Source of the DNA: Escherichia coli
GTDB taxonomy: Bacteria; Pseudomonadota; Gammaproteobacteria; Enterobacterales; Enterobacteriaceae
Length of the DNA: 729 nucleotides
NCBI RefSeq assembly: GCF_003334765.1
Contig: NZ_QOWT01000103.1
Reading direction: 5' to 3' (one strand)
How positions within the stretch are numbered: position 1 is the first letter of the stretch; every line of letters starts with the position of its first letter. A program made the position numbers and the translations under genes. Shown piece by piece: positions 1-729 of this stretch. The notes under the pieces are model-generated. The model was not told where the DNA came from, did no database searches, and saw nothing but the letters and a program-made list of their open reading frames with translations.

Positions 1-267
1 GTGGATGCCGGGCGACAATTATTATCTTCACAGGGGGATGCAATAAGAAATATTGAGGGATTCGCAGATGGCGGGATCGGCATGTCTTTTGATGCAATCA
101 GAGGGGCTTTTTACGATGCAGGAACACGATCAACGACAATGGCGAATAACACAACTGCTATAGGCAAAACCGATGACCTTGGATTCGACGCCTCTCGTGT
201 CGTGCCAACAGCTAATGAAAACCGTCCACGTAACATCGCCTTTAATTATATTGTGAGGGCTGCATAA
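1..267 (+). CDS. Tail fibre protein, C-terminal (distal tip) fragment; 5' end lies outside the window
   Basis: Frame +1 is open from base 1 to a TAA stop at 265-267. The GTG at 1-3 is most likely an internal Val codon, not a start. The 88 translated residues (…NENRPRNIAFNYIVRAA*) are rich in Gly/Ala/Thr/Asn/Asp and contain no His, Cys or Trp, which suits a fibre tip domain. The main support is context: the stop overlaps the start of a recognisable tfa gene, the canonical fibre-then-chaperone order. Family assignment is from context and composition, not a database hit. Confidence 0.65.
   Translation: MDAGRQLLSSQGDAIRNIEGFADGGIGMSFDAIRGAFYDAGTRSTTMANNTTAIGKTDDLGFDASRVVPTANENRPRNIAFNYIVRAA
254..259 (+). 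promoter_or_regulatory. Shine-Dalgarno-like ribosome binding site for tfa, embedded in the 3' end of the fibre gene
   Basis: TGAGGG at 254-259 (core GAGG 255-258) lies 8 nt upstream of the tfa ATG at 267. With the TAATG overlap this fits translational coupling. Confidence 0.5.
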
Positions 268-729
268 TGAAACCTGTTTTTGATGAAAATGGGCTGGCTA
301 CAGTACCGGGTAATATGCGTTGTTTTTATTATGAGGCAGTTACGTATGAATATACTGGCTGGTCTGATGAATATATTAATACTGGCGTAAGTATGCCCGC
401 CTGTTCCACTGGTATTGACCCGGGCGAATACATTCCGGGAAGAGTGGCAGTATTTACGGGTAAGGGATGGAGCCATGAAGAAGACCATCGCAATGAGACT
501 GTTTACTCAACAGAAAATGGCGCAGCTGTTACAGTGGATTATATCGGTGCCATCAAAGACGGTTATGTCACGCTTTCACCGTTAACGCCATACGATAAAT
601 GGGATGGTGAGAAATGGGTGACGGATACCGAGGCACAGCATAGCGCCGCACTAGACGCGGCAGAAGTAAAGCGCCAGTCGCTGATTGATGCTGCAATGGC
701 TTCCATCAGTCTGATTCAGCTGAAATTAC
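267..729 (+). CDS. tfa: Tail fibre assembly protein (Tfa-type chaperone, Caudovirales tail fibre assembly family); 3' end lies outside the window
   Basis: ATG at 267-269 opens frame +3, which stays open for 154 codons to the window edge (last full codon 726-728). My translation is MKPVFDENGLATVPGNMRCFYYEAVTYEYTGWSDEYINTGVSMPACSTGIDPGEYIPGRVAVFTGKGWSHEEDHRNETVYSTENGAAVTVDYIGAIKDGYVTLSPLTPYDKWDGEKWVTDTEAQHSAALDAAEVKRQSLIDAAMASISLIQLKL. From memory, the stretch …VAVF…W…EDHR..TVY…W.G..WV.DTEA… lines up with lambda Tfa (…[26 protein letters not shown]…YQKWNGTAWVKDTEAEK…KKSLMQ…), and the N-terminal VFDEN motif resembles the IVYDEN motif inside P2 gpG and Mu U. A GAGG at 255-258 sits 8 nt upstream of the ATG. 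Confidence 0.85.
   Translation, partial: MKPVFDENGLATVPGNMRCFYYEAVTYEYTGWSDEYINTGVSMPACSTGIDPGEYIPGRVAVFTGKGWSHEEDHRNETVYSTENGAAVTVDYIGAIKDGYVTLSPLTPYDKWDGEKWVTDTEAQHSAALDAAEVKRQSLIDAAMASISLIQLKL

What the first reader, a model, noticed from the sequence alone, without database searches (positions are those of the whole stretch)
1..729. Fibre tip plus Tfa chaperone: a host-range cassette that may be invertible or mosaic
A fibre C-terminal tip followed directly by tfa is the unit that sets receptor specificity. It is also the unit exchanged between phages and carried in invertible segments (Mu G segment with Gin, P1 C segment with Cin, e14 with Pin). The window is too short to show whether an invertase, an inverted second tip/tfa copy, or crossover sites flank it. 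This is a known architecture, not a new system.
Basis: partly seen in the sequence, partly recalled or inferred. Interest (0 to 1): 0.45.

Follow-up and report, generated by a model that had tools for sequence, protein, structure and literature searches.

The report
Stranded phage tail-fibre tip and chaperone
The window holds the end of a phage tail-fibre gene and most of its assembly-chaperone gene; in other phages and plasmids this unit sits in a DNA-flipping host-range switch, but here it is most likely a stranded, non-flipping leftover in a decayed E. coli prophage, so it is ordinary.

Summary
Bases 1-267 encode the last 88 residues of an e14-type side tail fibre. Bases 267-729 encode the first 154 of 197 residues of its Tfa chaperone; the stop and start overlap (TAATG).

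The exact 729 bases occur in two E. coli assemblies. In both they lie in a 6.6-kb decayed prophage inserted in the 5' end of sbcB. This junction is present in 73 of 5,426 complete E. coli genomes. There the fibre gene is a 5'-truncated pseudogene of 102 codons and tfa is intact. There is no invertase, no second tip/tfa and no crossover site, so the locus cannot invert.

The same cassette at 97-99% identity is one half of real 1.8-kb Pin/Cin/Gin-type invertible segments. These occur in P1-like plasmids, a lambdoid phage with Mu-like tail genes (SKA5) and a P2-like element. Two otherwise identical plasmids carry the segment in opposite orientations, exchanged exactly at the site core.

Mosaicism is clear, with recurrent homology breakpoints at about 214-226, 253/267 and 579.

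"Mosaic" is supported. "Invertible" is true of relatives but not of this locus. Interest is low.

The parts
1..267 (+). 3' end of an e14 StfE-type side tail-fibre gene: the last 88 codons plus stop TAA at 265-267. This is the receptor-binding tip distal to the Collar domain. In the most likely source locus it is part of a 5'-truncated pseudogene with 102 codons left.
   Evidence: Translation; PHROG tail-fibre hits; 98.9% identical to residues 164-251 of the 251-aa fibre in L006; annotated by PGAP as 'incomplete, missing N-terminus' in L001.
2..46 (+). 3' end of a 95-aa chimeric ORF in frame 2. The first 67 residues come from an unrelated phage early gene (phrog_3311), which reads out of frame into fibre DNA and stops at TAA 44-46. 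It marks the deletion junction 43 nt upstream of the window.
   Evidence: ORF at L001 11759-12046; phrog_3311 match over residues 1-67; junction sequence.
214..267 (+). Conserved junction block: the last ~17 fibre codons (..RPRNIAFNYIVRAA) and the tfa ribosome-binding site. Homology with other fibre/tfa pairs recurrently starts or ends here.
   Evidence: Partial hits begin at 214, 219, 226 or 253, or end at 267; the C-terminal motif is shared with e14 stfE.
267..578 (+). tfa codons 1-104, the allele-specific N-terminal domain. By analogy with Mu Tfa this is the domain that binds the cognate fibre tip.
   Evidence: Found only in copies that cover from about 214-253 onwards; most E. coli hits do not extend upstream of 579; domain roles from PMC9608196, which cites North et al. 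2019.
579..729 (+). tfa codons 105-154, the start of the conserved C-terminal (Caudo_TAP) domain. The window ends 43 codons before the tfa stop.
   Evidence: In a 45-row sample spread across the 2,362 matching records (2,290 genomes), 28 rows begin at 577-588 and one at 681, at about 90-98% identity; these include tfaE of e14 in K-12 strains; Pfam Caudo_TAP covers residues 76-193.

Best explanation
The window is the distal half of an e14-type host-range module. It holds the receptor-binding tip of a side tail fibre (an allele of stfE) and its cognate Tfa chaperone (an allele of tfaE).

In active elements this tip+tfa unit is one of two alternative halves of a 1.8-kb segment. A Gin/Pin/Cin-family serine invertase flips the segment between two inverted 26-bp sites. 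One of these sites lies inside the fibre gene, where it encodes ..LENLGLGE.. . Flipping fuses either tip in frame to the constant N-terminal part of the fibre.

The window's own copy is most likely a fossil of that switch. It sits in a 6.6-kb decayed prophage integrated in the 5' end of sbcB. The steps inferred from sequence comparison are:
1. The partner tfa'/tip'/invertase half was replaced by an AT-rich cargo gene, 17 nt before the tfa stop.
2. The tip lost the constant fibre part by recombination exactly at the site core.
3. A 601-bp deletion with 3-nt microhomology removed the half-site and the first ~50 tip codons.

The result is a fibre pseudogene, an intact but orphan tfa, and no capacity to invert. 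The cassette remains a substrate for homologous exchange with active copies.
For: Gene identity.

Source locus:
- The exact 729-nt match is found only in L010 and L011. Both lie in the sbcB-dacD island.
- The only IMG/VR contig carrying the window's tip alleles is that same island.
- The island-specific junction is present in 73 of 5,426 complete genomes.
- The island is a 6,623-bp insertion flanked by a 30-bp duplication, and the K-12 site is empty.
- The island has no invertase by tblastn, no crossover site and no inverted tfa.
- Homology to the invertible copies is limited to window -43..+843.
- The island equals locus L008 minus 601 bp.
- In L008 and in every invertible copy, homology begins at the TT core of the site.

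Active relatives:
- Invertase, tip+tfa and convergent tfa'+tip' occur in L002 (99.3% identical to the window), L004 (99.0%) and L003, phage SKA5 (96.8%).
- The inverted arms are 1,803 nt apart.
- The SKA5 invertase matches Mu Gin (3uj3) at E=1e-56. The four invertases are 55-78% identical to e14 PinE.
- Plasmids pF719-4 and pF801-4 have identical flanks with the 1,836-bp segment inverted at the site core.
- A 1,803-bp 'plasmid' record equals exactly the stretch between the arms.
Against: The real flanks of the window are unknown. Assigning it to the island rests on exact matches in only two assemblies and on one or two SNPs (A133, C401). These separate it from the intact-prophage copy (2 mismatches) and from L008 (1 mismatch). 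L013 shows that SNP patches move between contexts. No complete E. coli genome has a 100% match; the best have 1 mismatch. The order of the decay steps is inferred from present-day sequences, not observed. Expression of the orphan tfa was not tested, and promoter-like hits are no more frequent than chance.
Confidence: 0.8

Rival explanations
1. The window comes from an active invertible segment in a P1-like phage-plasmid, an e14/SKA5-like prophage or a P2-like prophage. In that case it is one switchable half of a working host-range switch.
For: Cassettes 97-99.3% identical sit in such segments. At looser identity, this tfa joined tail-to-tail to a tfa' is found in 533 genomes.
Against: Every invertible copy examined differs from the window at 5-23 positions, including a shared set in the tip (81, 133, 137, 142). 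The exact sequence and the A133 allele were found only in the island.
Confidence: 0.08
2. The window comes from an apparently intact prophage with Mu-like tail genes, integrated next to yfdC. There a complete 251-aa fibre carries this tip permanently fused to the constant part, followed by tfa, the AT-rich gene and an integrase. This would be a functional single fibre/tfa pair that does not invert.
For: L006, L007, L009 and L014 encode the same 197-aa Tfa and differ from the window by only 2-3 bases. They have a full tail gene set and one relic crossover site, with no invertase and no second site.
Against: None of these copies is identical to the window. All carry G133 and T401.
Confidence: 0.09
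3. The orphan tfa, possibly with the tip fragment, is kept in the island because it benefits the host or passing phages. It could act as a trans-acting chaperone or recombination donor, or as a receptor-masking defence like the e14 StfE2 chimera.
For: tfa is intact with its ribosome-binding site in all six island copies examined. One island copy carries a 5-SNP patch identical to the P1-like allele, so exchange does occur. Products of e14 segment inversion have been reported to block T2 adsorption (PMC12529663).
Against: The copies are nearly identical, so intactness may simply reflect recent origin. The tip fragment has no proper start codon and no anchor domain. There are no PADLOC hits. There are no expression or phenotype data.
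Confidence: 0.03

Closest known systems
e14 P segment of E. coli K-12 (stfP-tfaP / tfaE-stfE with pinE)
   Same: Same layout and same crossover site: CTCTCGAAAACCTTGGTTTGGGAGAA is identical in e14 stfP and in the intact-prophage fibre. The constant fibre part is 96% identical to StfP over 105 aa. The window's tip and tfa are positional homologues of stfE and TfaE. Segment sizes are similar: 1,797 bp in e14 according to PMC12529663, against 1,803 nt between the arms here.
   Different: This is a different specificity allele. The tip is only 38% identical to stfE over the window part, and Tfa is 61% identical to TfaE, with the divergence in the N-terminal domain. In the window's likely locus the partner half, the sites and pin are all missing.
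Mu G segment / Gin and P1 C segment / Cin
   Same: Same mechanism class in the active relatives: a serine invertase (Gin match at E=1e-56), a crossover site inside the fibre gene, and two alternative tip+tfa (Sv-U type) units tail to tail. The cassette itself occurs on plasmids of ~93-96 kb that carry phage genes; a related plasmid carrying only the tip is typed IncY.
   Different: The segment is much shorter: 1.8 kb against about 3 kb for G and 4.2 kb for C (from my own knowledge). The fibres are of the e14/collar type. No sequence membership in Mu S/U was shown, and the fibre matches Mu S only weakly (E=0.035).
Cryptic prophage remnants with orphan stf/tfa genes (for example CPS-53/KpLE1 with yfdK, yfdL and tfaS)
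   Same: An integrase-bounded remnant carrying yfdR/yfdT-type early genes, a truncated fibre gene, a tfa, and a cargo gene between tfa and the element end.
   Different: The integration site differs: the sbcB 5' end with a 30-bp att duplication. The cargo is a single orphan 359-aa membrane protein instead of gtrABS. The CPS-53 gene layout is recalled from knowledge and was not tested here.

Membership tests
Tfa / Caudo_TAP tail-fibre assembly chaperones | Sequence match to the family profile | tested here: met
   Pfam PF02413 at E=7e-25 on the 197-aa protein. phrog_105 at E=3.7e-62 on the window's 154 aa. PF28596 Caudo_TAP_N is listed for the same protein.
Tfa / Caudo_TAP tail-fibre assembly chaperones | Encoded immediately downstream of the fibre gene it serves | tested here: met
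   TAATG overlap at 265-269. The same arrangement is present in all 15 further loci where the whole window matches.
Tfa / Caudo_TAP tail-fibre assembly chaperones | Modular build: variable N-terminal fibre-binding domain and conserved C-terminal domain | tested here: met
   DNA conservation splits at window 579, which is codon 105. TfaE and the HK106 Tfa are about 61% identical overall, with near-identical C-terminal halves. Domain roles come from PMC9608196.
Tfa / Caudo_TAP tail-fibre assembly chaperones | Chaperone activity on the cognate fibre | not testable with these tools
   Needs co-expression or phage complementation experiments.
Hin/Gin/Cin/Pin invertible segment (claim about the window's own locus) | Serine invertase gene adjacent to the segment | tested here: not met
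   No recombinase is annotated in the island. tblastn of the SKA5 invertase and PinE against L010 gives nothing better than E=7.8.
Hin/Gin/Cin/Pin invertible segment (claim about the window's own locus) | Two 26-bp crossover sites in inverted orientation | tested here: not met
   No site in L001, L005 or L010-L013. No match with up to 3 mismatches in the 16.6 kb of L010 or in the window. The position where the site should lie (-212..-187) is deleted.
Hin/Gin/Cin/Pin invertible segment (claim about the window's own locus) | A second, oppositely oriented tip/tfa unit | tested here: not met
   tfa is followed by an unrelated gene of ~30% GC. No significant inverted repeat is present.
Hin/Gin/Cin/Pin invertible segment (claim about the window's own locus) | Both orientations present in a population | not testable with these tools
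   No reads are available for the source. In relatives both orientations are seen.
Hin/Gin/Cin/Pin invertible segment (claim about the 97-99% identical relatives) | Invertase, inverted 26-bp sites, two tip/tfa units, and both orientations observed | tested here: met
   Annotation and inverted repeats. Gin homology. Precise inversion between pF719-4 and pF801-4 at the site core.
Functional e14-type side tail fibre (claim about the window's own locus) | Complete ORF with the N-terminal constant (attachment) part and the Collar domain | tested here: not met
   In the island only 102 codons remain. They lack a start codon, the constant part and the Collar domain.

The most novel reading that the evidence does not exclude
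The 6.6-kb sbcB island keeps an intact integrase, intact att repeats and an intact tfa. It might not be inert debris but a small integrative element whose orphan Tfa and tip fragment are used. They could serve as a recombination or complementation reservoir that retargets incoming P1-, P2- or e14-type phages, or as an adsorption-blocking defence comparable to the e14 StfE2 chimera. The neighbouring orphan 359-aa membrane protein could be a surface-modifying cargo that matches the tip's receptor.
Probability: 0.05. Interest if true: 0.5.

Novelty: already known. Interest (0 to 1): 0.15.

Why it matters
The direct importance is small. The window is a textbook tail-fibre tip plus Tfa module, and standard pipelines already annotate it in the E. 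coli genomes that carry it. It does make a neat worked example of how an invertible host-range switch decays, with each step leaving a legible junction. It also shows one specificity cassette circulating at 97-99% identity among at least three elements with unrelated tail gene sets: P1-like plasmids, a lambdoid phage with Mu-like tail genes, and a P2-like element. A chromosomal fossil copy still exchanges sequence patches with them. That is relevant to predicting or engineering phage host range, but it opens no new question.

Tried and rejected
- Rfam scan of the window at E<=1: no match.
- Repeats and crossover-like sites inside the window: none.
- tRNA genes near the island: none, because the att site lies in the sbcB 5' end instead.
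- PDB sequence search with Tfa: no match even at E<=1, so no structural anchor for the N-terminal domain.
- Promoter and terminator scan around the cassette: counts equal to the shuffled expectation, so uninformative.
- PADLOC on Tfa and the island genes: nothing.
- The 359-aa neighbour: no hit in PHROGs, NCBIfam or PADLOC, no phage-record hit by tblastn, and only two clusters among 5.8 billion proteins. I did not model its structure because it lies outside the finding.
- I checked whether the two small ORFs upstream of the tip in L008 are invertase remnants. There is no similarity.
- I did not scan the metagenome or GTDB collections. The context was already settled, and the GTDB set holds one genome per species.

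Full report
**1. What the window contains**

Frame 1 is open from base 1 to TAA at 265-267. It gives 88 residues ending ..ENRPRNIAFNYIVRAA. These match tail-fibre families: phrog_523 at E=1.2e-21, plus eight further families, seven of them annotated as tail or tail-fibre proteins.

An ATG at 267-269 overlaps the stop (TAATG) and is preceded by GAGGG at 256-260. It opens an ORF that runs off the window after 154 codons. This ORF matches phrog_105 'tail fiber assembly' at E=3.7e-62.

The full-length protein recovered from relatives has 197 aa. It matches Pfam Caudo_TAP at E=7e-25 over residues 76-193. The window lacks its last 43 codons.

Nothing else is in the window: no Rfam match, no repeats and no crossover-like site.

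**2. Where this sequence lives**

Distribution in E. coli:
- Megablast against 5,426 complete E. coli genomes finds some match in 2,290 and at least 80% of the window in 147. The best hits have one mismatch.
- I built the Tfa sequence expected for the window and looked it up by exact identity. That returned ten places.
- Two of them, L010 (GCA_013359045.1) and L011 (GCA_946056975.1), contain the window exactly.

Both exact matches, and the one-mismatch hit L001, lie in the same context. It is an insertion between sbcB and dacD with this gene order:
- a 392-aa tyrosine integrase;
- a small helix-turn-helix gene;
- yfdT, a hypothetical gene and yfdR-like early genes;
- a 95-aa ORF;
- a fibre fragment that PGAP flags as 'incomplete, missing N-terminus';
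- tfa;
- a 359-aa membrane-protein gene on the opposite strand.

Comparison with K-12 shows a 6,623-bp insertion flanked by a 30-bp duplication that overlaps the 5' end of sbcB. The K-12 site is empty.

A 400-nt probe across the island-specific junction is covered at 80% or more in 73 complete genomes. The only IMG/VR contig carrying the window's tip alleles is this same island; it carries the same one-base difference from the window (T at 523) as L001.

**3. Why this locus cannot invert**

- The island has no annotated recombinase other than the integrase. tblastn with two invertases finds nothing.
- No 26-bp crossover-like site occurs in any island copy, nor within the 16.6 kb of L010 with up to three mismatches.
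- No inverted duplicate of tfa or the tip is present.
- Homology to the invertible copies described below runs only from window -43 to +843.
- Upstream of -43 lies an unrelated early gene (phrog_3311). Its first 67 codons read out of frame into the fibre DNA and stop at window 44-46.
- The fibre frame has no start codon before the GVG... GTG at window 1 and lacks both the constant N-terminal part and the Collar domain. It is a pseudogene.
- tfa keeps its ORF and its ribosome-binding site.

**4. The same cassette in working switches**

Copies in other elements (identity to the window):

| Locus | Element | Identity | Arrangement |
|---|---|---|---|
| L002 | 95.9-kb plasmid carrying phage genes | 99.3% | Window-type tip fused to an 867-aa fibre, then tfa, a convergent second tfa, and a recombinase |
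| L004 | 40.5-kb element with P2-type tail genes, also chromosomal as L016 | 99.0% | Window-type tip lies next to the invertase, in the silent position; the alternative tip is fused to the fibre |
| L003 | Phage SKA5, with lambdoid early genes and Mu-like tail genes | 96.8% | Same silent position as L004 |

All three have inverted arms exactly 1,803 nt apart. In L004 the arms read TTTCCAAAAACCTTGGTTTGGGAGAA and TTCTCCTAAACCAAGGTTTTTGACAA. These closely resemble the hix/gix consensus as I recall it from the literature.

The SKA5 invertase matches Mu Gin (3uj3) at E=1e-56 over its full length. The four invertases are 55-78% identical to e14 PinE.

There is direct evidence of inversion. Plasmids pF719-4 and pF801-4 are both 92,643 bp, and their cassette is 97.5% identical to the window. 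Their flanks are 100% identical over 3,111 nt on each side. The 1,836-bp segment lies in opposite orientations, and the exchange point is at the central TT/AA of the site.

There is also a 1,803-bp circular 'plasmid' record, NZ_CP148587.1. It equals exactly the stretch between the arms, L004 2971-4773. I interpret this as an assembly-graph artefact of a segment present in both orientations. That is an inference.

**5. Relation to e14 and the path of decay**

A second context (L006, L007, L009 and L014) is an apparently complete prophage with Mu-like tail genes, integrated next to yfdC.
- Its 251-aa fibre has an N-terminal 105 aa that are 96% identical to e14 StfP.
- It has a single site, CTCTCGAAAACCTTGGTTTGGGAGAA, identical to the e14 site.
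- The window-type tip follows, then tfa, the same 359-aa gene and an integrase. There is no invertase and no second site.

The window's tip is 38% identical to e14 stfE, and its Tfa is 61% identical to TfaE. They are therefore different specificity alleles of the same module.

A third context (L008) has the tip beginning exactly at the core TT of the site. The outer half-site is degenerate, of the kind seen next to invertases, but no invertase is present.

The island equals L008 minus 601 bp, with a TTT microhomology at the deletion junction.

On the right side, every non-invertible copy diverges from the invertible ones 17 nt before the tfa stop (..PALYEV against ..PELPEA). At that point GC content falls from about 45-52% to 29-32%.

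The inferred history is:
1. An e14-type switch.
2. Loss of the partner half and pin to an AT-rich insertion.
3. Loss of the constant fibre part by recombination at the site core.
4. A 601-bp illegitimate deletion.

**6. Mosaicism**

Homology with other elements starts or stops at recurrent positions:
- **About 214-226 or 253 through to 729.** This gives tfa with a different fibre tip at 91-95% identity. Examples are O157:H7 EDL933 and the P2-like phage 500465-2, which also has an invertase and a second tfa.
- **Positions 1-267 only.** This gives the same tip at 95-97% with a different downstream gene, on plasmids of ~93-147 kb, one of them typed IncY.
- **Position 579 onwards only.** In a 45-row sample spread across all matching records, 29 rows begin at about 577-588 or later; these include tfaE of K-12 strains.

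Position 579 is codon 105 of tfa. It is the boundary between the variable N-terminal domain and the conserved C-terminal domain. This fits the modular model in which the N-terminal domain binds the fibre and the C-terminal domain drives trimerisation (PMC9608196, citing North et al. 2019).

At a fine scale, one island copy (L013) carries five clustered SNPs at 81-158 that are identical to the P1-like allele. This looks like a gene-conversion patch.

**7. Verdict**

- 'Mosaic' is supported.
- 'Invertible' is true for near-identical relatives but is contradicted for the locus that carries this exact sequence.
- The module is of a long-known kind: e14 P, Mu G and P1 C. Recent work on e14 inversion and phage T2 (PMC12529663) shows that such cryptic cassettes can matter, but nothing here points to a new mechanism.
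- The main uncertainty is provenance. The window's flanks are not given, and the assignment rests on exact matches in two assemblies plus one or two diagnostic SNPs.

Noticed in passing
L010:8713-9792 (- strand), starting about 250 nt beyond the window end; the same gene is in L001, L005-L009 and L011-L014: A 359-aa multi-pass membrane protein gene at 29-32% GC follows tfa in every non-invertible context, where serotype-converting phages carry O-antigen modification genes. It has no Pfam, NCBIfam, PHROG or PADLOC hit and no phage-record hit. Only two clusters exist among 5.8 billion proteins, the second at 60% identity.
   Followed up: partly
NZ_CP148587.1 (L015), whole 1,803-bp record: This record was deposited as a circular plasmid, but it is exactly the inter-arm part of the invertible segment (tip+tfa and tfa'+tip'). 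It is most likely an assembly artefact caused by both orientations being present in the reads.
   Followed up: partly
L005:7615-7768 (window -43..+34, present twice): One island copy has a 77-bp tandem duplication spanning the deletion junction and the first 34 bases of the window.
   Followed up: no
L013, window positions 81-158: An island copy carries five clustered SNPs identical to the P1-like plasmid allele. This suggests gene conversion between the chromosomal fossil and an active cassette.
   Followed up: partly
L010:4119-4148 and 10772-10801: The island is bounded by a 30-bp direct repeat (87% identical) that overlaps the 5' end of sbcB. The integrase ORF (392 aa) is intact, so the 6.6-kb remnant may still be excisable.
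   Followed up: partly
L008:7091-7534: About 445 nt with two small minus-strand ORFs (91 and 53 aa) lie where an invertase would be expected next to the silent-orientation tip. They resemble nothing in any other locus or library searched.
   Followed up: partly
L017:2878-3639: The shaft-coding part of the P1-like plasmid fibre gene contains tandem repeats with a period of 168 nt (56 aa), seen as staggered self-matches.
   Followed up: no
L001:12979-14058: PGAP annotates the AT-rich gene as 271 aa in strain BE2-5, whereas the ORF and other assemblies give 359 aa. The start-codon choice is inconsistent between records.
   Followed up: no
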